NCBI GenBank assembly: GCA_965237595.1
Contig: CBDEFY010000004.1
Span: 274,213-338,212 of the forward strand
Source of the DNA: Dehalococcoidia bacterium
Lineage (GTDB): Bacteria > Chloroflexota > Dehalococcoidia > Lucifugimonadales > UBA3495
Direction of reading: 5' to 3'
DNA: 64,000 nucleotides
The position numbers and the translations under genes were made by a program. The notes beneath the pieces are model-generated. The model did not search any database, was not told the origin of the DNA, and saw only the letters and a list, made by a program, of their open reading frames with translations. Shown here one piece after another: positions 28,871 through 46,473 of the stretch (within the stretch, counting starts at the first letter, position 1; each line of letters opens with the position of its first letter).

Positions 28871-30223
28871 GGTCACGTCCCGTCAAGTGGTGTAAGAGTG
28901 CGGCATCCTGTTGATGTAGTTTAGGTGGGTGTCGCCTCCGCGAGATCGGCCTCTGGAAGAGCTTCGTTGAAGGTCAGCACGACAGGTGTGATGTATCGAC
29001 GGCCGACGGCCCATTCGTCGTGCTGCTCAGCCAGGACGGCGCCAACGAGGCGGCGCACGGCCGGCCGGTTAGGGAAGATGCCCACCACATCGGTGCGTCG
29101 CCGGATCTCCTTGTTGAGACGCTCCTGTGGGTTGTTGGACCAGACCTTCTTCCAGTGGGCGAGTGGGAAGTTGGAGAAGGCCAGGAAGTCGGGTCCGGCC
29201 TCGTCCAGTAGAGAGGCGACCTGAGGGAACCGGTCCTGGAGTTGATCGGTCACCCTGTCGAGCTGGGCGTGTACCTCATCGGGGGAGGGTTGCTGGTAGA
29301 TGGTGCGCACCATGGTGACTACCCATGGCTGGGCGCGCCTGGGGACCCGAGTGAGCAGGTTGGTCATGAAGTGGGTGCGGCACCGTTGCCAGCTGGCTCC
29401 GCCGAAGACTGCGGCGATGGCGCCTCGGAGTCCTTGATGAGCGTCCGATACCACCAGCTCCACCCCGCCGAGGCCCCTGGCGGACAGCGAGCGTAGGAAG
29501 GCCAGCCAGAAGGCGCCGTCTTCACTCGTACCCACGTCCATCCCGATGATCTCCCGCTTGCCCTCGCCATTGACCGCCGTTGCCACCACCACGCTGACGT
29601 TGACGATCCTGCCGGCCTCCCTGACCTTCTGGGTCAGTGCGTCCAGCCACAGGTAGGGGTAGGGTCCACCGCCCAGCGGACGGCCCATGAAGCTATCCAC
29701 CACCACGTCCAGTTCCTGACAGATGCGCGACACCTGGCTCTTGGAGATACCCTCACACCCCAGGGCCTTGACCAGATCGTCCACCCGCCTTGTGGATACC
29801 CCTTCCACGTAGGCCTGCTGGATCACAGCCAGCAGAGCTCGCTCGCTGCGACGCCGTGGCTCCAGCAGGCTCGGGAAGTAGCTCCCTTCTCTGAGCTTCG
29901 GGATGTGCAGATCCATCGTCCCTACACGGGTATCCCACGCCCGGGACCGATACCCGTTGTGCTGGGTCACCCGCTCAGGGCTGCGTTCTCCATACTCAGC
30001 ACCGATCCTCGATGACACCTCCGCATCCATGATCCCCTCTACCAGCACTCTCAGTGCCTCCCGTAGGAAGTCCACGTCGCGCAATAGCTCCAGCAGGTCC
30101 ATCCTTTCCTTGACCACTGTTGTCCTCCTTTCTCGAGCTTTCTTCTTTGCCCGCTAAGGATGACGCGGTGGTCTCTCTTTCTCCAGACCCTCTCCCTCTT
30201 ACACCACTTCCTGGGACTCTACT
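28871..30223 (-). mobile_element. IS256-family element
   Basis: IR core GTCCC..AAGTGGTGTAAGAG at both ends; TSD GCAGCGGG (28863-28870, 30224-30231). Confidence 0.92.
28921..30117 (-). CDS. IS256 (Mutator) transposase
   Basis: YLWLDA, VVSDAH, WQRCRTHF, SNNPQERLNKEIRRR. Confidence 0.95.
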   Translation of the reverse strand: MVKERMDLLELLRDVDFLREALRVLVEGIMDAEVSSRIGAEYGERSPERVTQHNGYRSRAWDTRVGTMDLHIPKLREGSYFPSLLEPRRRSERALLAVIQQAYVEGVSTRRVDDLVKALGCEGISKSQVSRICQELDVVVDSFMGRPLGGGPYPYLWLDALTQKVREAGRIVNVSVVVATAVNGEGKREIIGMDVGTSEDGAFWLAFLRSLSARGLGGVELVVSDAHQGLRGAIAAVFGGASWQRCRTHFMTNLLTRVPRRAQPWVVTMVRTIYQQPSPDEVHAQLDRVTDQLQDRFPQVASLLDEAGPDFLAFSNFPLAHWKKVWSNNPQERLNKEIRRRTDVVGIFPNRPAVRRLVGAVLAEQHDEWAVGRRYITPVVLTFNEALPEADLAEATPT

Positions 30224-32508: not shown

Positions 32509-33840
32509 ATGGGTGACGGCGACAAAACCCCTCTCCGGCTCCAGTTCAACCCCAAAGTCCGTCTGGAGTTTCACGGTGCCACCATCACTTCCGATGCCGG
32601 ACTCTTGCCCATTCGAGAGCTGGATGATGCCCTGGGCCTTACCCATATTGCTGCCGACTATCTCCAGGAAAGCCGCTCCGGTCGCAACATCCGACACCAC
32701 CTCGTCCCGCTGCTCAGACAGTCCATCTACAGCCGCTTGGCCGGCTACGATGACACCAATGATGCCGAACGCCTTTCCCAAGACCCAGCCATGAGAGTCG
32801 TCGTGGGCTGGCAAGGATCAGACCGGAACGCCGCCAGCACCAACACCGTGAGCCGCTTTGAAACTGAAACTCTGACCCAACAGGACAACCTGCAGGGGCT
32901 GGCACGAATGAATCCCCAATGGGTGGAAGATGCTATGGCCCATACTCCACACCAGCGAGTGATTCTGGACATGGACAGCTCGGAGAGTCCAGTGCATGGC
33001 CATCAGGAGGGTGCCGCCTACAATGGGCACTTCGAGTGTGTCTGCTATCATCCCCTCTTTCTATTCAACCAGTTCGGCGATTGTGAAGGAGCGACGCTAC
33101 GCCCCGGCAACGTCCATAGCGCCGAGGGCTGGCAGGAACTCCTTGAGCCGGTGGTGAAAAGATACCAGAGGAAGGGACGGCGGCTGTTGTTCCGGGGTGA
33201 TGCCGCCTTTGGCAAGCCAGAGGTGTACGAGTACTTGGAACAAGAGATGATTGGGTACGCCATCCGGCTTTCAGCTAACGCGGTACTTCAGAGAGAAATC
33301 GCGCACCTGCTGGTACGACCTGCCGACTGGTCTTCCAGGAGGCCGATCGTCTCCTACTACGACTTCACTTACCAGGCCCAGAGCTGGAGTATTTCCCGGC
33401 GAGTAGTAGCCAAGGTGGAGTGGCATCAGGGGGAGTTATTTCCCAGGGTAGGCTTCATCGTGACCAACCTGAGCTATCCACCCAAAGGCATAGTCCGCTT
33501 TTACAATGGCCGTGGCACAGCGGAGCAGTGGATCAAGGAGGGCAAGTACGCCCTGAACTGGACCAGACTGTCCTGTCACAAGTTCGTGGCCAACCAGGCG
33601 AGGCTATGGCTGTTCGTTCTGGCGTACAATCTGGGAAACTTCATGAGAAGGTTGGCTTTGCCGGAGGATATGAAGCATTGGACTCTGACCAGTCTTCAGA
33701 CTAGGCTGATCAAGACGGGTGGGCGACTGGTACGCCATGCCAGGAGGATGGTGTTTCAGCTTGCCGAGGTGCTGGTGACCAGGGAAATGCTCACCGGGAT
33801 ACTAGAACGGATCAGCCGGCTTCGGCTGGCACCTGGCTAG
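32509..33840 (+). CDS. IS1380-family transposase
   Basis: ITSDAGLL, ILDMDS, FRGDAAF, YNGRGTAEQWIKEGK. Confidence 0.95.
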   Translation: MGDGDKTPLRLQFNPKVRLEFHGATITSDAGLLPIRELDDALGLTHIAADYLQESRSGRNIRHHLVPLLRQSIYSRLAGYDDTNDAERLSQDPAMRVVVGWQGSDRNAASTNTVSRFETETLTQQDNLQGLARMNPQWVEDAMAHTPHQRVILDMDSSESPVHGHQEGAAYNGHFECVCYHPLFLFNQFGDCEGATLRPGNVHSAEGWQELLEPVVKRYQRKGRRLLFRGDAAFGKPEVYEYLEQEMIGYAIRLSANAVLQREIAHLLVRPADWSSRRPIVSYYDFTYQAQSWSISRRVVAKVEWHQGELFPRVGFIVTNLSYPPKGIVRFYNGRGTAEQWIKEGKYALNWTRLSCHKFVANQARLWLFVLAYNLGNFMRRLALPEDMKHWTLTSLQTRLIKTGGRLVRHARRMVFQLAEVLVTREMLTGILERISRLRLAPG

Positions 33841-36299: not shown

Positions 36300-36874
36300 C
36301 TCCAGGCGGGAAGACAGGTGCGGATCCTGACAGGCACATCAGCGGCGCCCTCGTCAAGGCAGGCTACGCAATCACCGCCACCACCAACCCGGACGACGTC
36401 TTCGGCCTCATCGAGCAGGAGAGGCCTGATCTGGTGCTGCTCAACCTGATGCTCCCGGGTGTTGACGGGATCGAACCGATGAAGGACATCACGAAACCGG
36501 ACGGCACGCCGGTCATCTTCGTGTCCGCCTACGGGCAGGACCAACTCCTCGCCAGGGAGTTCGAGGCGGGGGTCGCCCACTACGTCGTCAAACCCTTCTC
36601 CCCAACGGAGCTCGTGGCCCGGATCAGAGCAGCCCTGCGGAAGCGGGAGACGCCGGAGCCGTCAGGCCCATACGTCCTGGTCAACCTGACCATCGACTAC
36701 GCCGCACGCCGTGCGACCTTTGCCGGCAGTCCGGTCCTGCCTACCTCCATCGAGTACCGCACGCTGGTAGAGCTGTCGGCGAACGCCGGGCGCGTGCTGA
36801 CCTATGAGATCTGCTGCTCTGGGTGTGGGACAGAGAGCTCGACACCGCCGTGCGGCCCATACGAACCGTCATAA
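36300..36874 (+). pseudogene. OmpR/KdpE-type response regulator fragment
   Basis: PDLVLLNLMLPGVDG, PVIFVSA, YVVKPFSPTELVARIRAALR, GRVLTYE. Confidence 0.8.
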
Positions 36875-39529: not shown

Positions 39530-40249
39530 TACGTAGAGGACCTCTGAATCGAACGTTGGTCGACAAGTAGCAGCGGCCCATTCGCGCTTCACGCGATTCC
39601 AAGAACCGCGTTCCATTTGGGACATGCTGACTTCTCAACCGCCATATGTCGGCAGTCGATCCGCCCACCTGGTCCACTTTACCTCTGCCCTTTACAGTTA
39701 TTGCCTAGCAGTTCTCGGATTCTTCCCCTGTCTGTCTACCCGAGGAACGCTGTTCCTTGCTCGGCTTGGCGACGCGAGGAGAGATGCTCCGGGTAGAATT
39801 GAGGCGATCGGGCGGTGATGAGGTGTGGCGGTGGTGGCGCATGAGGATGAAGTGGCGGAAGTGGCCCAGTGGACTGAGGGGATTGAAGGGGTCCATGAGT
39901 GCGTTACAAGGCGGTACCGGCGTCCAAAGCCCCGCCATCGGCGGGTGCTGGAAGGCATCGAGACGGTTCCCTGGTGTCCCATAGAAGTGGCCGGATGTCG
40001 CTTGGGGTCCCAGGTGCGCGTCTTGTTAACTTGCTTTTGGACTTAGAGCAATGTCGATCACCTAGGTAGAAGTACGACGCGGTAGTTTGATATGAGTACT
40101 CTCTTTGGCTTGCCGGACATCGCCCCTCTGGGAGCGGGGATTGAACTGGTCGACGAAAACGACCCGGCTGTAACTCCCCGTTTCCTTGCTATCGAGGCTT
40201 CCTCCTATGGGAGAAGCCACTAGAATCATCAAGAAATACCACGATTACC

Positions 40250-40495
40250 GATTACATATACATTCTCCGTAGCGAGCGTAACGGCCGTTTTTACATAGGG
40301 AGTACCGGCGATCTACAAAATCGGGTAGAGCAGCACAACGCTGGGATGAGCAAGTCGACGAGAACCTTTCGTCCCTGGCAGTTGATTTATCAAGAAGAGT
40401 ACGAATCTCTTTCTGCAGCTCGACAAAGGGAATCTCAGCTAAAATCTTGGAAGAGCCACACATATCTCGAGTCCCAGTTAAACCTCAATGTATAG
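40250..40495 (+). pseudogene. Small GIY-YIG nuclease (UPF0213/YhbQ-like) copy 1, start codon lost
   Basis: YIYILRSERNGRFYIGSTGDLQNRVEQHN...RPWQLIYQEEY...ARQRESQLKSWK; not in the ORF track. Confidence 0.88.
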
Positions 40496-40573
40496 CTCAT
40501 CTGGGAGAGCGTCCCGATCGCCATCGGGAAGGTACGGGGTTCCCCCGGTAAATCGGGGCCCGCAGCTCCACCA
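40493..40573 (+). repeat. tRNA-Ala-like sequence lacking 5' acceptor strand, with inserted hairpins (copy 1)
   Basis: TAGCTCATCTGGGAGAGCG D-arm, GGTACGGGGTTC T-arm start, CCCGCAGCTCCACCA 3' end. Confidence 0.8.
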
Positions 40574-40583
40574 CTGTCCTGTC

Positions 40584-40830
40584 ATGTATTACATATACAT
40601 TCTCCGCAGCGAGCGTAACGGCCGTTATTAGTTCGGATGCACCGGTCACGTGAAAACTCGCGTGGAGCAACACAACGCCGGTATGACCAAGTCGACGAGA
40701 ACCTTTCGTCCCTGGCAGTTGATTCATCAAAGAGTATGAGTCCCCGTCCGTCGCAAGAAAAAGGGAATCCCAGATAAAATCTTGGAAGAACCGCTCCTAT
40801 GTCGAGTCCCAATTGAACCTCAGTGCATAG
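40584..40830 (+). pseudogene. Small GIY-YIG nuclease copy 2 (internal TAG plus frameshift)
   Basis: MYYIYILRSERNGRY*FGCTG...RPWQLIHQ/EYESPSVARKRESQIKSWK. Confidence 0.85.
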
Positions 40831-40908
40831 CTCATGTGGGATAGCGTCCCGATTGTCATCGGGAAGGTACGGGGTTCCCCCGATAAATCGGGGCCCGCAG
40901 CTCCACCA
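40828..40908 (+). repeat. tRNA-Ala-like sequence with inserted hairpins (copy 2)
   Basis: Same layout as 40493-40573 with a few substitutions. Confidence 0.8.
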
Positions 40909-40982
40909 CATCCAGCCCGATAAAGCACTTCGTCTTCCCTTCCCGCGCTTTCTAGTAGTTTCTGGCAATAGCCCCTTCACTC

Positions 40983-41789
40983 TTATCGCACTACGGTTAT
41001 ATCTAGGAGGTTGCCCTGACCGCGCCGAATCTGGATGTTCATTTCCTGCCCCGGCTCGCGGTCGCGGACGGCGGTCTGGAGCTGGGGCACGGACCCAATT
41101 GCCTGGCCGTCGACTACTAAGATGACATCCCCTTCACGCAGGTCAGATTTGGCGACGGCGCTATTGGCCCGCGATATCCGCACCGCAATCCCATCGTCGG
41201 CAGTTACCGGTGCCGTTTCAAACCACTCCTGCACGACTGTAGCTGTGCCGTGGGGCGCGCACACGCACACGCCCAAACCGCATGAAGGGCATCCACACTC
41301 ACAGTCTAGGCCTTCATTGCTCAACTCCCATACCACCACGTCGGCGAGCAGTTGGTTAACCTCTTGGGCGGCCCCTGTGTAGCCGCGCAGGTGGGCCTCC
41401 GCCAGATCGGCGGTCTCACCATCGAAGAAGCGGTGCGCGGTGGCGTGAAGAATCCCATATCCAAAGGCGGCGTGGTTAAGAGCTGAGTGGATGCCGTGTA
41501 GCGCCGCGACCCTATCAACGCTACCGTTAATCGACTGTCCGACGGAGACAACCTGGCTGGCCTCGACGGAGCGGGAATCTTTGCCACCTATGGCGTGCAA
41601 GCGGTTTTGCAGCGCTTCGCGCTGGACGTTGACCATAGTTTGGAGCCGCTCGACGGTCTCGGCGGCTCCCTAGTGACCTCTTATTCGGGTGAGCCCTTGG
41701 TTAAGAATCTCTGCATTCTGGGTTTCCAAGGTCACCATGTCAGCCAGGCGTTGCTGTAATCTGTTTACAGGCTCAGAATTGCTCATCAT
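40983..41789 (-). pseudogene. Ferritin-like (DUF892-like) + Cys-rich + PDZ protein, in-frame TAG at 41672-41670
   Basis: Helical N-terminal region; CECGCPSCGLGVCVC; LREGDVILVVDG PDZ motif. Confidence 0.65.
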
Positions 41790-42555: not shown

Positions 42556-42864
42556 ATGCTGGAACACGATGGGATACGATGGGGCTACGTCTTCTTGAAG
42601 GCGTCGTCTTACCTGAACACCGAGGAATTCCATGAGCTGATGGTCCAGGCGGTGGAGATGTATCTGGCCGGGGAGGAACAGCGGAACGTAAAAGGGGCTG
42701 AATACGAGGGCCGGCTCTACACCGAGCAACGTTACGAACTCATCGGCACCATCGGCGGCCAACGGTTCGACGCCGACCTGGAAACCTCCCGCGGCCATGA
42801 CAGCGCCGCCTTTCTCGTTAACGAGCAGACCCAAGGAGCCGGGGCGGCCATATCATTGAACTAG
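42556..42864 (+). CDS. Hypothetical protein
   Basis: 102-aa ORF with host-like codon usage. Confidence 0.75.
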   Translation: MLEHDGIRWGYVFLKASSYLNTEEFHELMVQAVEMYLAGEEQRNVKGAEYEGRLYTEQRYELIGTIGGQRFDADLETSRGHDSAAFLVNEQTQGAGAAISLN

Positions 42865-42976
42865 GGCACCGGGGAACTAGCCGCCGCCCCGTTGACTCGC
42901 CAACCGGCCTAATCTACACTCCAGCCTCTTTCAGGTGCGCCCCATCTTATCCGGCTAAACGCCCCGCGAGGGAACC

Positions 42977-44092
42977 ATGACCAGCATCAACGATTTTCCA
43001 TTGGTCAAAGAGATAGGACGAGTACCGTCCTCCACCGTCCCCCTGAACTCCCAGGAAGAATCCCGGTTCCAGGGACTGGCCGAAGAAGTTGTCATGATTG
43101 ACGTGCACCAGCACCCCTTCGTGCTGCCGCAAGCCATGGACCGGTTCATCGACTTCCTCCGCACCAACCGCTACGCCTGGGGGTTCGAGGCGGTGAAGCA
43201 CGGCGGCTGGTCCACGGTGACCACCTCCAACGTGTTCGGCGCGTTGCAGAACGCTACCGAGATGTCTTTCGTGGAGTACGAAGACGTGGCGGCGGAAGTG
43301 GGCATGATGCTGGCCGACGTGGCGGCCCAGGAAGACGTGGTGCGGGTGGGCAACGCCGACGAGATTCTGGCGGCACGGCAGGCCGGCAAGGTCGGCTTCA
43401 TGCCAACGCTGGAGCACCTGCCCATCGGCAACCGCATCGAGCGCCTCGACCAACTCCACACCATGGGAGTGCGTCTCGCTGGCATCACCTACAACCGCAA
43501 GAACTACATCGGCGACGGCATGTACGAGCGCAACCCCGGTGGCCTGAGCGAATTCGGCATTGAAGTCATCCACCGGATGAACGACTTGGGCATGGTTGTC
43601 GACCTCTCCCACGCCTCCATCCCCACGGTGATGGACGTCATCGAGTTCTCCCGGGCGCCGGTGGTCTTCAGCCATAACGCCGCTTACACCCTGCGGCCCA
43701 ACCGTCGAACCCGGAAAGACGAGGAACTGAAGGCCTGCGCGGCCAAGGGAGGCCTGGTCTGCATCACCGCCGTGCCCAATTCCCTGAGCGACGACCCGGA
43801 ACAGGACATCGAGTGCGTCCTGGACCACTACGACTACATGGTGAACCTTATCGGCATCGACCACGTGGGAATCGGCACCGATACCGTCATCGGCGACCAC
43901 GTGATATTCCAGCATTTCATGTTGGGCCGGGAAATGAGCGAGATGCCGGCACCCTACCTGAGCGGCTTGGAATCCCCGGCCGACGGCAAGAACATCATCC
44001 GGGGTCTGATCCGCCGGGGCTATTCGGACACCGACGTCAAGAAGATTGTCGGCGGCAACGCCCTGGACCTGTTCCGCCGGGTCATGGCGTAG
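42977..44092 (+). CDS. Membrane dipeptidase (peptidase M19)
   Basis: IDVH, GLSEFG, VDLSH, FSH, HVGIGTD, GGNAL. Confidence 0.93.
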   Translation: MTSINDFPLVKEIGRVPSSTVPLNSQEESRFQGLAEEVVMIDVHQHPFVLPQAMDRFIDFLRTNRYAWGFEAVKHGGWSTVTTSNVFGALQNATEMSFVEYEDVAAEVGMMLADVAAQEDVVRVGNADEILAARQAGKVGFMPTLEHLPIGNRIERLDQLHTMGVRLAGITYNRKNYIGDGMYERNPGGLSEFGIEVIHRMNDLGMVVDLSHASIPTVMDVIEFSRAPVVFSHNAAYTLRPNRRTRKDEELKACAAKGGLVCITAVPNSLSDDPEQDIECVLDHYDYMVNLIGIDHVGIGTDTVIGDHVIFQHFMLGREMSEMPAPYLSGLESPADGKNIIRGLIRRGYSDTDVKKIVGGNALDLFRRVMA

Positions 44093-44120
44093 CCGGGTTT
44101 TGGTCTAGGAGAAAGAGGAC

Positions 44121-44957
44121 ATGACCACCACCGACGCCGGCCCAGGCACTGAATCCCACCACATCGATCTCCAGCGCTACGGCGATATTGCGGTGATAAC
44201 GCTGCAACGGCCAGACCGATTGAACGCCCTCAACCGGCAGATGGCCCAGGAGTTGCACGATGTATTTGACCAACTGGCCGCAGAGTTTCCAGACACCCGG
44301 GCAGTTGTCATTACCGGCGCGGGCCGGGGGTTCTGCTCCGGGGCCGACGTGGGCGACCTCGCCAAGCGGATGGCCGATACCATTGATGGAGACTCGAGTC
44401 CTTCCACCAGCACAGACCAAGGCCCGTCCATCACCATGCGCTTGGCGCCCCACCTGCGTGAGATTCCCCAGCCGGTGATCGCGGCAGTGAACGGGGTGGC
44501 CGCCGGAGCGGGACTGGGCATCGCCCTGTCCTGTGACATCAGAATAGCCTCGGATGAGGCTCGGTTCACATCGGTGTTCGTTAAAAGGTCACTGATGCCC
44601 GACGCCGGTGTTTCCCAGATCCTTGGGGCCCTAGCCGGACCCGGCATCGCCGCCGAGATGGCCCTCACCGGCAGGGTATACGACGCCCAGTGGGCGCTGG
44701 CCAAAGGGTTGGTTAACCAGGTCGTCCCCGCGGGCGAACCTATATCCCATGCCGAGTCCTTGGCTCAAGAGATAGCCGCCAACCCGCCGCTGGCGGTGAA
44801 GGCAACCAAGGAATTACTCAACAGCCACTACCCAGACCTGAACCAAGTGATCCAGGCCGAGCACCGAGCCAACGACGCGGTCCGCGGCACCGCCGACCAG
44901 AAGGAAGCAGTGCAGGCCTTTTTGGAGAAAGGGCAGCCGAAGTTCACCGGCAGCTAA
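44121..44957 (+). CDS. Enoyl-CoA hydratase/isomerase family
   Basis: RPDRLNAL, FCSGAD, PVIAAVNGVAAGAG, DIRIAS. Confidence 0.95.
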   Translation: MTTTDAGPGTESHHIDLQRYGDIAVITLQRPDRLNALNRQMAQELHDVFDQLAAEFPDTRAVVITGAGRGFCSGADVGDLAKRMADTIDGDSSPSTSTDQGPSITMRLAPHLREIPQPVIAAVNGVAAGAGLGIALSCDIRIASDEARFTSVFVKRSLMPDAGVSQILGALAGPGIAAEMALTGRVYDAQWALAKGLVNQVVPAGEPISHAESLAQEIAANPPLAVKATKELLNSHYPDLNQVIQAEHRANDAVRGTADQKEAVQAFLEKGQPKFTGS

Positions 44958-45083
44958 GCCGTCCATCCAAAAGCCGGGCGTCTGCGTATTCAATGTCGTG
45001 TACAGCTCGATTCCGGCTTACTCTGAAAAGTACGCTTATGCTATCCTGGCCAGACAACCCCAATATTTGAGTGAGGGACCAGA

Positions 45084-45521
45084 TTGAACTGCCCACGCTG
45101 CGATGTCGCTCTGAACGAAAAATCCCTTAAAGGGATCGAGATTGACCACTGTCCCGAATGCAGGGGCCTTTGGCTGGACTTTCACGAGTTGGACCAACTA
45201 GAAGACCACGCCATGGATGAGGACAACAGCAAGGGGATGATTGAGTACGCGAGGCGGGAGAGCGACATCTCCTGCCCCCATTGCAACGAGGTCATGGAGA
45301 CCTTCAACTACCGGGCCCACGACCTGCCCATCGACCACTGCAAGAACCAATGCGGTTATTGGCTGGACGAGGGGGAAGAGAAGAAGGTTCTGGAGGTCAT
45401 GAAGCAGCGCGTCCAGGGCCTGAAGCGCTCCGGCTCTGCCGAGGAGTCGTGGGCCAAGTTCATGGAAAGCGGCGGGTCCCGCTCCTTCCTAACCAAGGTC
45501 AAGGACCTGTTTACGGGCTAA
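45084..45521 (+). CDS. Double zf-TFIIB domain protein
   Basis: CPRC...IDHCPECRGLWLD and CPHC...IDHC..CGYWLD. Confidence 0.9.
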   Translation: MNCPRCDVALNEKSLKGIEIDHCPECRGLWLDFHELDQLEDHAMDEDNSKGMIEYARRESDISCPHCNEVMETFNYRAHDLPIDHCKNQCGYWLDEGEEKKVLEVMKQRVQGLKRSGSAEESWAKFMESGGSRSFLTKVKDLFTG

Positions 45522-45546
45522 TCCCAGGAACATGACTTCCACCTTG

Positions 45547-45832
45547 TCATTCTGAAGCGGGAGCCGAAGAATCTCTTTGTCGCTGGACTAACTTTCCCCA
45601 GTAGAAACGAGACCTTCGCGCGCTCACGGCGCTATCAAGGTGACATTAGCGGGTATTGCTACTATTCCCAAAGGCAGAGGGCACCACAGCGTCACATCCG
45701 TCTACGGTCAACCTCACTCCAACTCCACCATGAACAGCGCCAGTGAGGCGTAAGCGCGCGAAGGGCCTCGTTGTTCCTGATCAGGGCTAATTCTAAGCAA
45801 CGAAATTCTTCGGTTGAAGCCTCAGAATGTAA
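45547..45832. repeat. Cluster of REP-like palindromes between convergent genes
   Basis: GTCATTCTGAAGCG..CGAAGAATCT and inverted ATTCTTCG..CTCAGAATG; GTCAC/GTGAC-tagged partners. Confidence 0.55.
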
Positions 45833-45855
45833 TGTGTTGGAAGAGCGGTACGAGC

Positions 45856-46473
45856 CTATTTATAGGGAGTATCCCAACGGTCGATGCTGCAGACCTCTTC
45901 CAAGGGCTTACGTGTGACCGAGCCGAACTCGCCGCGTGGGTACCCCAGGGGCATGCAGTACACGATTTCGGCGGTTTCGGGGATGTTAAGCAGCTTGTGT
46001 ACTCGCTCGTCGGTTACGGCGTGCAGGGTGGTGATGGTGCCGCCGATGCCGTGGGCCCTGGCCGCCAGCAACAAGTTCTGAGCCGATGGGATGATTCCGG
46101 CGGCACCACCCTTGGAGAGTGCGCAGATGAGGACCATCACGGGCGCGTCGCCGAATTCATTGGCCAGCCGCATGGCCGACCGCATTGTACTCTTGCCCGG
46201 TGGGATGTCCTCGGGCCCCATGATCCCAGCGCCCTTCCGCTTGGCCCACCAAGCCTCGTGATACAGTTCGCCCAGTTTCTTCCGGGTCTCATCGTCCTTC
46301 ACCACGATGAAGTGCCACTGCTGTGTATTGCCGCTGTTGGGGGCGCGGATGGCCGCCTCCATGATGTCCCGCATCACGTCGTCGGGGATGGGGTCAGGTT
46401 TTAGCCTGCGCATGGCCCGCTGGGTGAACATCGCTTCGCCAAGAGACATGGTCAACCGGTCGGCGGTGGTCAT
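45856..46473 (-). CDS. Nitroreductase family protein
   Basis: QRAMRRLKPDP, APNSGNTQQWHF, QNLLLAARAHGIG, LGYP. Confidence 0.93.
   Translation of the reverse strand: MTTADRLTMSLGEAMFTQRAMRRLKPDPIPDDVMRDIMEAAIRAPNSGNTQQWHFIVVKDDETRKKLGELYHEAWWAKRKGAGIMGPEDIPPGKSTMRSAMRLANEFGDAPVMVLICALSKGGAAGIIPSAQNLLLAARAHGIGGTITTLHAVTDERVHKLLNIPETAEIVYCMPLGYPRGEFGSVTRKPLEEVCSIDRWDTPYK

What the first reader, a model, noticed from the sequence alone, without database searches (positions are those of the whole stretch)
40250..40908. Tandem GIY-YIG nuclease plus hairpin-modified tRNA-mimic units
Seen: two diverged ~335-bp direct units, each a small stand-alone GIY-YIG gene followed by a tRNA-Ala-like sequence from about position 8 to CCA. 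The nuclease stop codon TAG is the tRNA's U8-A9-G10. The 5' acceptor strand is missing, the anticodon arm is a TCCCGAT-N4-ATCGGGA palindrome, and the T-loop carries CCCCG(A/G)TAAATCGGGG. The next unit's ATG begins 10 nt after CCA. Known: such small GIY-YIG proteins (UPF0213) have poorly defined roles, and tRNA genes are integration hotspots. Inference: a minimal selfish element that homes into or amplifies at tRNA genes and uses palindromes as recognition marks, comparable to RAYT/REP but with a GIY-YIG enzyme. It sits at the island/core boundary, and the ORF track missed both genes.
Basis: partly seen in the sequence, partly recalled or inferred. Interest (0 to 1): 0.88.

Follow-up and report, generated by a model that had tools for sequence, protein, structure and literature searches.

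The report
Dead tRNA-gene-riding GIY-YIG nuclease elements
Two broken copies of a tiny nuclease gene, each fused to a deliberately crippled copy of an alanine tRNA gene, are relics of a widespread and apparently undescribed kind of selfish DNA that lives beside tRNA genes in many bacterial phyla.

Summary
Window 40251-40908 carries two direct units of about 335 bp. Each is a minimal GIY-YIG (UPF0213/Slx1-like) gene whose TAG stop is positions 8-10 of a tRNA-Ala(GGC) copy. In that copy the anticodon arm is swapped for a perfect palindrome and a second palindrome sits in the T-loop.

Both genes are dead. Unit 1 lost its start codon at a rearrangement breakpoint (40250/40251). Unit 2 has an early TAG and a 2-nt deletion.

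A same-genus genome keeps the true tRNA-Ala(GGC), a 10-nt spacer and a vestige of the nuclease gene at the syntenic site.

Relatives of the protein lie within 120 nt of a true tRNA gene in 25 of 31 loci from six or more phyla. About 21 of these also have a palindrome-substituted partial copy of that same tRNA. One arm of the copy matches the neighbouring tRNA perfectly and the other is vestigial.

The nuclease genes evolve under purifying selection. Near-identical proteins sit at different tRNA-Ala genes.

Best reading: a homing or recombination-driven selfish mini-element of tRNA genes, fossilised here. Whether the palindrome is the nuclease's recognition mark is open. The same palindrome is also dispersed genome-wide in non-tRNA repeats. 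I found no published description.

The parts
40191..40250 (+). Left flank. It is the upstream region plus the first 15 codons of an unrelated gene, a paralogue of one on contig C6. It ends at the rearrangement breakpoint 40250/40251.
   Evidence: 93% identity over 60 nt to C6, ending exactly at 40250. The rest of that gene is absent from the window. Contigs of other runs follow the window up to 40250 and then diverge into the C6-like continuation.
40251..40495 (+). Unit 1 GIY-YIG gene remnant. It is 5'-truncated and has no canonical start codon. All 19 family-invariant residues are kept. The stop TAG is at 40493-40495.
   Evidence: Pfam GIY-YIG E 5.8e-18. ORF listing. Translation. Invariant columns.
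40493..40573 (+). Unit 1 partial tRNA-Ala(GGC) copy, positions 8 to CCA, with no 5' acceptor strand.
   Evidence: 19/19, 13/13 and 15/16 identity to the true tRNA of same-genus G408 outside the two substituted segments. Not called a tRNA by ARAGORN or Rfam.
40512..40529 (.). Unit 1 palindrome (7-bp stem, 4-nt loop). It replaces the 17-nt anticodon arm exactly.
   Evidence: It forms in the predicted fold.
40543..40558 (.). Unit 1 second palindrome, inserted in the T-loop directly after GGTTC.
   Evidence: Palindromes at the same position occur in L076 (Bacteroidota) and L037.
40574..40583 (+). 10-nt spacer between CCA and the ATG of unit 2.
   Evidence: G408 has a 10-nt spacer between its true tRNA and the vestigial ORF start.
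40584..40830 (+). Unit 2 GIY-YIG pseudogene. ATG at 40584, in-frame TAG at 40629-40631, 2-nt deletion after about 40729, terminal TAG at 40828-40830.
40828..40908 (+). Unit 2 partial tRNA-Ala(GGC) copy. Its anticodon-arm palindrome is at 40847-40864 and its T-loop palindrome at 40878-40893.

Best explanation
What it is. The locus is a fossil tandem pair of a selfish mini-element that lives at tRNA genes. One unit is a roughly 80-aa GIY-YIG nuclease gene (UPF0213/Slx1-like, catalytic domain only). It starts 10-20 nt after a tRNA gene. It ends in a partial copy of that same tRNA, in which the anticodon arm, and sometimes the T-loop, is replaced by a perfect GC-rich palindrome.

How it likely works (inferred). 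The nuclease makes a break in or next to the tRNA gene or the palindrome. Host homologous recombination then uses the tRNA-derived arm of the element. A crossover or copy event on the T-arm side gives 'tRNA - gene - crippled 3' copy'. One on the D-arm side gives 'crippled 5' copy - gene - tRNA'. Either way an intact tRNA is regenerated and the spare copy is dead. Repeated events give tandem arrays.

History in this genome. The element sat downstream of tRNA-Ala(GGC). Two diverged units accumulated there. Later a rearrangement removed the tRNA and the first start codon, and the second gene acquired a stop and a frameshift.
For: SHOWN - local history:
- Same-genus G408 has the true tRNA-Ala(GGC), a 10-nt spacer and a vestige of the ORF start (23/30 identical). 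This lies about 1.5 kb upstream of genes syntenic with window 42556-45985.
- The left end of unit 1 is a breakpoint.

SHOWN - tie to tRNA genes:
- Of 31 loci picked by a peptide pattern alone, the script found a true same-strand tRNA within 120 nt in 23. Two more were wrongly excluded by my filter, giving 25. About 21 have a palindrome-substituted fragment of that tRNA.
- The loci come from Chloroflexota, Patescibacteria, Bacteroidota, Desulfobacteraceae, Planctomycetota and Gammaproteobacteria.
- Arm rule: in 11 of 12 'tRNA upstream' loci the arm 3' of the palindrome matches the neighbouring tRNA at 30-33 of 30-33 nt, while the 5' arm matches only 9-18 of 19. In 4 'tRNA downstream' loci the reverse holds: 20-26 of 26 against 9-17 of 25-33.

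SHOWN - clade specificity in the order:
- One clade sits at Ala, Val, Ile or SeC genes.
- One sits at tRNA-Asn: 5 of 7 by ARAGORN, and the other 2 by eye.
- A third clade is tRNA-linked in 0 of 8 loci.

SHOWN - selection and movement:
- dN/dS is 0.08-0.38 among four intact relatives.
- Proteins 85% identical sit at tRNA-Ala(TGC) and tRNA-Ala(CGC) genes.
- Tandem units that are 97.7-99.7% identical occur in L065 and L068.
- The two window ORFs differ mostly at third codon positions (11/9/24), with dN/dS about 0.2. Their tRNA parts differ only 6.2%, against 18.3% for the ORF parts (Fisher p=0.007). This fits two separate arrivals at one tRNA.

PRECEDENT: the phage GIY-YIG enzyme SegB cuts inside tRNA genes and drives recombination-dependent tandem amplification of tRNA+segB units (PMC13096335, sections 9-10 read).
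Against: - No nuclease activity, cut site or movement has been observed. All mechanism steps are inferred from anatomy.
- An 80-aa catalytic domain has no evident DNA-binding part that could read a specific tRNA gene.
- The intact tRNA next to the element would remain a target if the tRNA gene is what is cut.
- A mere 'inactivating' substitution does not explain two things. The palindrome core (TCCCG...CGGGA in 17 of 22 listed cases, GTCCG in 3) is kept across phyla. The same palindrome is also dispersed in non-tRNA repeats.
- A clean filled-versus-empty pair in near-identical strains was not found.
- The family is nearly absent from phage records (3 of 50,697) and viral contigs (7 weak partial matches). 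The vehicle between cells is therefore unknown.
- The predicted fold of the tRNA-like part is not more stable than shuffles (z -0.76 and -0.97).
Confidence: 0.55

Rival explanations
1. Palindrome-directed nuclease, a RAYT/REP analogue. The Slx1-like enzyme recognises the extruded or single-stranded palindrome itself, not the tRNA gene. It nicks there and so drives duplication of the unit. In trans, it spreads the palindrome into other stem-loops around the genome. The tRNA arms only supply homology and a safe harbour.
For: - The palindrome core is conserved across phyla and host GC contents, and the stems are always perfect.
- A second palindrome of the same type sits in the T-loop in this window, in a Bacteroidota locus and in L037.
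- The closest solved relatives are UPF0213 proteins and SLX1, which the depositors name a structure-specific endonuclease (passages of PMC1564403).
- TCCCGAT-N2-5-ATCGGGA is found in 39 of 121 genomes of the order, patchily. Counts are 30 here, 102 and 112 in two others, and 0-1 for the control pattern.
- Loop-length subtype agrees between the tRNA copy and the dispersed copies in G098.
- Of the 5 genomes among those 121 with a close homologue (E<1e-15), 4 hold 12 or more palindromes. Of the other 116, 11 hold 10 or more. Related genomes are not independent and the threshold is mine.
Against: - Several palindrome-rich genomes (G019, G034, G046) gave no match, and G059 only a distant one, to this nuclease.
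- G001 has the element but only one exact palindrome genome-wide.
- Dispersed copies lie in at least 8 unrelated repeat families with no tRNA sequence.
- This genome has no intact copy of the nuclease.
- With the looser pattern CCCGA..TCGGG the count (119) is no higher than one of three control palindromes (55, 58, 122).
Confidence: 0.22
2. A host-serving, non-mobile module. The small nuclease gene is co-transcribed with the tRNA. The crippled tRNA copy acts at the RNA level, for example as a 3' stabiliser or processing signal of the nuclease mRNA, or as a tRNA-like decoy. The arrangement is inherited vertically.
For: - The ORF starts 10-20 nt after the tRNA with no visible promoter or ribosome-binding site between them.
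- The stop codon lies inside the tRNA-like structure.
- The proteins are under purifying selection.
- Contigs from an RNA library contain a 5' tRNA-Ala copy with this palindrome. This does not prove transcription.
Against: - The distribution is patchy.
- Units form tandem arrays, orphan units and pseudogenes.
- Near-identical proteins sit at different tRNA genes.
- The one-long-arm rule holds.
- The element has decayed in both genomes of this genus.
- Most copies have no acceptor stem, so tRNA-processing enzymes have no usual handle.
Confidence: 0.1
3. Ordinary leftovers of integrase-mediated islands at a tRNA gene (displaced att fragments), with the GIY-YIG gene as a passenger.
For: - tRNA genes are common integration sites and leave partial copies (passages of bioRxiv 10.1101/2022.07.05.498093).
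- The region to the left is rich in transposases.
- In G096 a near-full tRNA-Ala copy without a palindrome flanks a small two-gene insert.
Against: - The unit is only about 335 bp.
- No integrase was found among the 15 ORFs scanned between 28.9 and 48.6 kb.
- The duplicated part starts at position 8 and is welded to the ORF stop.
- The same architecture, with palindrome substitution, recurs in several phyla.
Confidence: 0.04

Closest known systems
SegB, the free-standing GIY-YIG homing endonuclease of T-even phages (PMC13096335; abstract and sections 9-10 read)
   Same: It is a GIY-YIG nuclease gene sitting among tRNA genes. It cuts inside tRNA genes at a T-loop-like motif. It drives recombination-dependent tandem amplification of units made of a tRNA gene plus the (truncated) nuclease gene. 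It is associated with many tRNA isotypes.
   Different: - SegB is a phage gene and, as I recall (not checked here), a larger multi-domain protein. Here the gene is chromosomal, a bare catalytic domain of about 80 aa, and nearly absent from phage records.
- SegB units carry full tRNAs. Here the spare copy is partial and has a palindrome in place of the anticodon arm.
- No cleavage data exist for this family.
UPF0213 / prokaryotic Slx1-like minimal GIY-YIG proteins (PDB 1ywl, 1zg2; PMC1564403, passages read)
   Same: Sequence family: the profile of the clade hits 1ywl at E 1.5e-11, 1zg2 at 3.9e-11 and SLX1 at about 1e-5. The proteins are a single domain with no auxiliary domain.
   Different: These proteins are described as of unknown role or as repair-related. 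The passages I read in that survey mention no link to tRNA genes or palindromes, only one fusion to a tRNA methyltransferase.
Genomic islands integrated in tRNA genes (regenerated tRNA plus displaced fragment)
   Same: An intact tRNA is kept and a partial copy marks the other end of the insert.
   Different: - There is no integrase.
- The insert is a single 240-bp gene.
- The fragment begins at position 8 or ends near position 50.
- The fragment's anticodon arm is replaced.
- Homology arms are long on one side only.
REP elements and their RAYT (Y1) transposases
   Same: Short perfect palindromes are dispersed through the genome, some with GTAG...CTAC outer arms. A small nuclease gene is flanked by them.
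   Different: The enzyme class differs (GIY-YIG, not HUH/Y1). The only Y1_Tnp match in this genome is a weak 26-bit partial hit far away. The link between enzyme and dispersed palindromes is untested.

Membership tests
GIY-YIG nuclease superfamily (Pfam PF01541) | Profile match above the curated cut-off, with the motif residues | tested here: met
   Unit 1 scores 65.4 bits against a cut-off of 22.6. It keeps all 19 columns that are invariant in the 10-sequence clade alignment. Unit 2 scores 29.3 bits but has an internal TAG.
UPF0213 / Slx1-like minimal GIY-YIG | Closest to UPF0213 and SLX1 by sequence; a single domain without extensions | tested here: met
   The clade profile hits 1ywl (E 1.5e-11), 1zg2 (3.9e-11) and SLX1 chains (1e-5 to 3e-4). 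ORFs are 78-90 aa.
Functional gene (either unit) | Start codon and uninterrupted frame | tested here: not met
   Unit 1 has no ATG/GTG/TTG before the motifs. Unit 2 has TAG at codon 16 and a 2-nt deletion.
tRNA gene | Cloverleaf with acceptor stem and anticodon loop, detected by tRNA finders | tested here: not met
   ARAGORN finds 0 tRNAs in the window. Rfam gives no tRNA match at E<=10. The 5' acceptor strand is absent, and the anticodon arm is a 7-bp stem with a 4-nt loop.
Free-standing homing endonuclease gene | Gene lies beside its conserved target, and the element-bearing copy of the target is altered | tested here: inconclusive
   Adjacency to tRNA genes holds in 25 of 31 loci, and the spare copy is altered by palindromes. 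However, the functional tRNA beside the gene is unaltered and the target is unknown.
Free-standing homing endonuclease gene | Site-specific double-strand cut of the gene-less allele, and conversion of that allele | not testable with these tools
   Needs enzyme assays and crosses.
Free-standing homing endonuclease gene | Presence/absence polymorphism at one site among close relatives | tested here: inconclusive
   Same-genus G408 keeps the tRNA plus only a vestige of the gene. 85%-identical proteins sit at different tRNA-Ala genes. No clean empty site in a near-identical strain was seen.
REP/RAYT system | HUH/Y1 transposase flanked by the genome's REP palindromes | tested here: not met
   The enzyme here is GIY-YIG. 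The only Y1_Tnp match is 26 bits, at C4:444642, which is not at this locus.
Integrase att duplication at a tRNA gene | Integrase gene at one end, and a displaced fragment identical to the native tRNA 3' part | tested here: not met
   No integrase was found among the 15 ORFs scanned. The fragment differs from native tRNAs by two palindrome substitutions.

The most novel reading that the evidence does not exclude
A cross-phylum class of roughly 330-bp mobile modules, each made of a minimal Slx1-like GIY-YIG nuclease and a palindrome-substituted pseudo-tRNA. The nuclease reads DNA structure (the palindrome, or the cloverleaf-forming tRNA gene) rather than sequence. The pseudo-tRNA serves as a one-armed homology handle for integration at the cognate tRNA gene while an intact tRNA is regenerated. 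The nuclease also seeds or mobilises the same palindrome into other stem-loops, founding the genome-wide REP-like families seen in some hosts. This would be a second, non-HUH route to REP-type repeats.
Probability: 0.2. Interest if true: 0.92.

Novelty: new variant of a known kind. Interest (0 to 1): 0.8.

Why it matters
- Small UPF0213/Slx1-like GIY-YIG proteins are very common in bacteria and have no agreed role. For at least two of their clades, these data tie them to a concrete, testable life style at tRNA genes.
- The architecture suggests a very small self-contained way to enter an essential gene without harming it. It consists of one long perfect homology arm, one vestigial arm and an exactly swapped anticodon arm.
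- It explains a class of odd 'tRNA-like' or 'undetermined anticodon' calls beside real tRNA genes. ARAGORN called several such copies tRNA-??? or gave them a wrong isotype.
- It offers a possible origin for dispersed palindromic repeats in Dehalococcoidia-type genomes.
- It extends the recent SegB result, nuclease-driven amplification at tRNA genes, from phages to bacterial chromosomes.

Tried and rejected
- Rfam scan of 39800-41300 at E<=10 gave only a chance-level sRNA match (E 1.9) and no tRNA.
- ARAGORN finds nothing in the window.
- The genome's own tRNA-Ala(CGC) is not the source. It differs in the T arm and acceptor. No tRNA-Ala(GGC) or (TGC) gene is in this 89%-complete assembly. The only other tRNA-Ala-like 3' end looks by eye like the end of tmRNA (no tmRNA finder was run there).
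- No further tRNA-Ala pieces occur in the window.
- Predicted folding of the tRNA-like parts is not more stable than shuffles (z -0.76 and -0.97). This gives no support for a special RNA fold beyond the two hairpins.
- The other small GIY-YIG genes of this genome (C4:59050 and C4:234962) have no tRNA or palindrome beside them.
- G096, which looked like a filled/empty pair, holds a different small insert between a tRNA-Ala and a palindrome-free copy.
- A search for the right-flank PDZ protein in 30 genomes of the family found nothing at E<=1e-10. That gene could not serve as an anchor.
- Phage records gave 3 of 50,697. Viral contigs gave 7 weak partial matches.
- Read laying: all four runs are contigs. 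Parts without cover, depth figures and the presence of contigs in RNA libraries are not used as evidence of absence or of transcription.
- Six literature searches found no paper on small bacterial GIY-YIG genes with palindrome-substituted tRNA copies. Subscription journals and supplements were not searchable.
- Ideas considered and set aside for lack of any test: an RNA-guided nuclease using the tRNA-like RNA, and frameshift-suppressor tRNAs with 8-nt anticodon loops. Most copies lack an acceptor stem.

Full report
**1. What is in the window.**
- Bases 40251-40908 hold two head-to-tail units of about 335 bp (84% identity by blastn).
- Each unit begins with a small reading frame that matches the GIY-YIG catalytic domain. 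Unit 1 scores E 5.8e-18. Unit 2 scores 29.3 bits with an internal stop.
- Each unit ends in a tRNA-like stretch.
- The TAG that closes the unit 1 frame (40493-40495) is followed by sequence that runs to CCA at 40573. The ATG of unit 2 follows 10 nt later.
- The 19-nt D-arm string occurs only at these two places in the window, against 0.02 expected by chance.
- ARAGORN and Rfam do not call either stretch a tRNA.

**2. Both genes are dead.**
- In unit 1 the frame is open, but there is no ATG, GTG or TTG ahead of the catalytic motifs. The first in-frame start gives only a 49-aa tail.
- Unit 2 has an ATG, then TAG at codon 16 and a 2-nt deletion.
- The inactivation is recent. Unit 1 keeps all 19 residues invariant in a 10-sequence alignment of the clade.
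- The 44 differences between the two frames fall 11/9/24 by codon position, with dN/dS about 0.2 and dS about 0.6.
- So the two genes diverged while they were still coding. Their tRNA-like parts differ by only 5 of 81 bases, against 44 of 240 for the frames (Fisher p=0.007).

**3. Where the tRNA-like part comes from.**
- The genome's only detected tRNA-Ala (anticodon CGC, contig C7) is not the source.
- A genome of the same genus (G408) has a true tRNA-Ala(GGC) about 1.5 kb upstream of genes that are syntenic with window 42556-45985.
- The window copies equal that tRNA from position 8 onward: 19/19, 13/13 and 15/16 bases. There are two exceptions.
  - The 17-nt anticodon arm is replaced by an 18-nt perfect palindrome.
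  - Four bases of the T-loop are replaced by a second palindrome.
- In G408 the tRNA is followed by a 10-nt spacer and a decayed start of the same nuclease gene (23 of 30 bases identical).
- The ancestral locus was therefore tRNA-Ala(GGC) followed by nuclease unit(s).

**4. The left edge.**
- Bases 40191-40250 are the first 15 codons, plus leader, of a gene whose paralogue lies on contig C6. The remainder of that gene is not in the window.
- Contigs from other public runs follow the window up to 40250 and then continue as the C6-type gene does.
- Position 40250/40251 is thus a rearrangement breakpoint. It removed the tRNA and the start codon of unit 1.
- Upstream lie two transposase genes.
- The gene directly to the right (PDZ protein) has no counterpart in 30 genomes of the family.

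**5. The same architecture elsewhere.**
- In the same order, the window protein finds small GIY-YIG frames in 189 of 401 genomes.
- Its closest relatives are followed, at or just after the stop codon, by partial tRNA-Ala, -Val or -Ile copies whose anticodon arm is the same kind of palindrome. True tRNAs of the same isotype lie just upstream.
- A second clade sits at tRNA-Asn: 5 of 7 by ARAGORN, the other two by eye. Its frame can run through the D-arm of the copy.
- A third clade is never tRNA-linked (0 of 8).
- A scan of one genome per species, using only a peptide pattern, returned 31 loci from six or more phyla, including the cultured Maribellus sediminis.
  - A true same-strand tRNA lies within 120 nt in 23 by script. 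Two more were wrongly excluded by my filter because of natural 6-bp anticodon stems, giving 25.
  - Of the other six loci, three start inside an upstream tRNA at a contig edge, one has the tRNA one unit further away, one is an orphan like ours, and one starts at the ORF.
  - About 21 loci have a palindrome-substituted fragment of that tRNA.
- Two layouts occur: tRNA-gene-crippled 3' copy, and crippled 5' copy-gene-tRNA. In the second layout the frame may end on positions 8-10 of the true tRNA (L090).
- Several loci have crippled copies on both sides.
- Arrays of 8, 6 and 3 gene-less crippled copies occur next to true tRNAs in G172, G152 and G001.

**6. A rule for the arms.**
- In 11 of 12 loci of the first layout, the arm 3' of the palindrome is identical or nearly identical to the neighbouring tRNA (30-33 of 30-33 bases). 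The 5' arm is truncated or diverged (9-18 of 19). The twelfth locus is interrupted by a T-loop palindrome.
- In the four loci of the second layout the reverse holds.
- Each element thus carries one long perfect homology arm and one vestige.

**7. Signs of selection and movement.**
- Intact relatives have dN/dS of 0.08-0.38.
- Proteins 85% identical sit at tRNA-Ala(TGC) in one genome and tRNA-Ala(CGC) in another. In each case the long arm matches the local tRNA.
- Tandem units 97.7-99.7% identical occur in two loci.
- The family is almost absent from phage records and viral contigs.

**8. The palindromes.**
- They replace the anticodon arm exactly. They are always perfect, with stems of 6-9 bp. 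They keep a common core across phyla: TCCCG...CGGGA in 17 of 22 listed cases and GTCCG...CGGAC in 3.
- In this genome the strict pattern occurs 30 times, against 0 for the control. In the order it is found in 39 of 121 genomes, very unevenly.
- The dispersed copies sit inside at least eight unrelated repeat families, some nested in longer palindromes with GTAG...CTAC ends. None of these has tRNA sequence.
- With a looser pattern the excess is not clear: 119, against controls of 55, 58 and 122.

**9. Mechanism.**
- Shown: the anatomy, the tie to tRNA genes, the arm rule, purifying selection, and the local history.
- Inferred: a break made by the nuclease, followed by host recombination through the long tRNA arm.
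  - A crossover or copy event on the T-arm side yields the first layout.
  - One on the D-arm side yields the second layout.
  - Either restores an intact tRNA and leaves the palindrome-bearing copy dead.
  - Repeated events or unequal exchange give arrays.
- The diverged frames but similar tRNA parts in this window fit two separate arrivals at one tRNA gene.
- What the nuclease cuts is unknown. The conserved palindrome core argues that the palindrome is more than a scar.

**10. Comparison with what is known.**
- The nearest described system is phage SegB, a GIY-YIG enzyme that cuts in tRNA genes and drives recombination-dependent amplification of tRNA+segB units (PMC13096335; abstract and sections 9-10 read).
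- By sequence the protein belongs with UPF0213/Slx1-like minimal GIY-YIG proteins. The passages I read in the 2006 survey of the superfamily mention no tRNA-gene link (PMC1564403).
- Six full-text searches found no description of this architecture. Papers outside the open library and supplements could not be checked.

**11. Verdict.** The local instance is a fossil. It points to a widespread and apparently undescribed variant of nuclease-driven selfish DNA at tRNA genes.

Noticed in passing
whole genome G000, e.g. C7:843170, C7:696675, C4:78220: About 30 strict (TCCCGAT-N2-5-ATCGGGA) palindromes are dispersed in at least 8 repeat families. Some are nested in longer palindromes with GTAG...CTAC ends, like REP elements. 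Others sit on terminator-like stems.
   Followed up: partly
window 39632-39696: A 67-nt repeat with at least 9 further copies (82-83% identical) on five contigs of the genome. Read depth over it is very high in public runs.
   Followed up: no
L003 (G096:C1), about 1480-2170 on the reversed locus: A true tRNA-Ala(CGC) is followed by a small two-gene insert and then a near-full second tRNA-Ala copy (from about position 6) with a normal anticodon arm. By eye, untested, the insert looks like a HicB/HicA-type pair. Small inserts with tRNA duplication therefore also occur without GIY-YIG genes or palindromes.
   Followed up: no
L048, L052, L053, L055-L057, L059 (order relatives): A different small GIY-YIG clade (about 90 aa) is never next to tRNAs. 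It is followed by runs of another short hairpin repeat (GGATTCCGGC...GCCGGAATGACGG type). This is a second possible nuclease-palindrome pairing.
   Followed up: no
L050, L054 (and L043, L047, L049, L051, L058): A tRNA-Asn-linked GIY-YIG clade. In L050 and L054 the last 11 codons are encoded by the D-arm and a palindrome of the crippled tRNA-Asn copy, and the stop TAA lies in the remnant of the anticodon loop.
   Followed up: partly
L013 (G172:C7), L020 (G152:C4), L007 (G001:C1): Arrays of 8, 6 and 3 tandem gene-less partial tRNA copies (Ile, Ile, Ala), each with the palindrome in place of the anticodon arm, directly beside the true tRNA. The Ile units include the tRNA's leader.
   Followed up: partly
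genome G000: No tRNA-Ala(GGC) or tRNA-Ala(TGC) gene is in the assembly (44 tRNAs found, 89% complete). tRNA-Ile(GAT) at C4:203658 is not followed by a tRNA-Ala.
   Followed up: partly
window 28921-30117 (-) and 32509-33840 (+): Two transposase genes (Pfam Transposase_mut and DDE_Tnp_1_4) and a truncated response-regulator frame (36434-36874) lie upstream. The stretch 38.7-40.2 kb has no convincing gene.
   Followed up: no
L024/L034 (G033:C27): One crippled 5' copy has a hybrid anticodon arm. Its left half is from the true tRNA-Ala(GGC) and its right half from the palindrome, as if exchange had occurred within the loop.
   Followed up: no
window 40909-40960: The bases after the second CCA align weakly with the start of a unit. 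This may be the vestige of a third unit.
   Followed up: no
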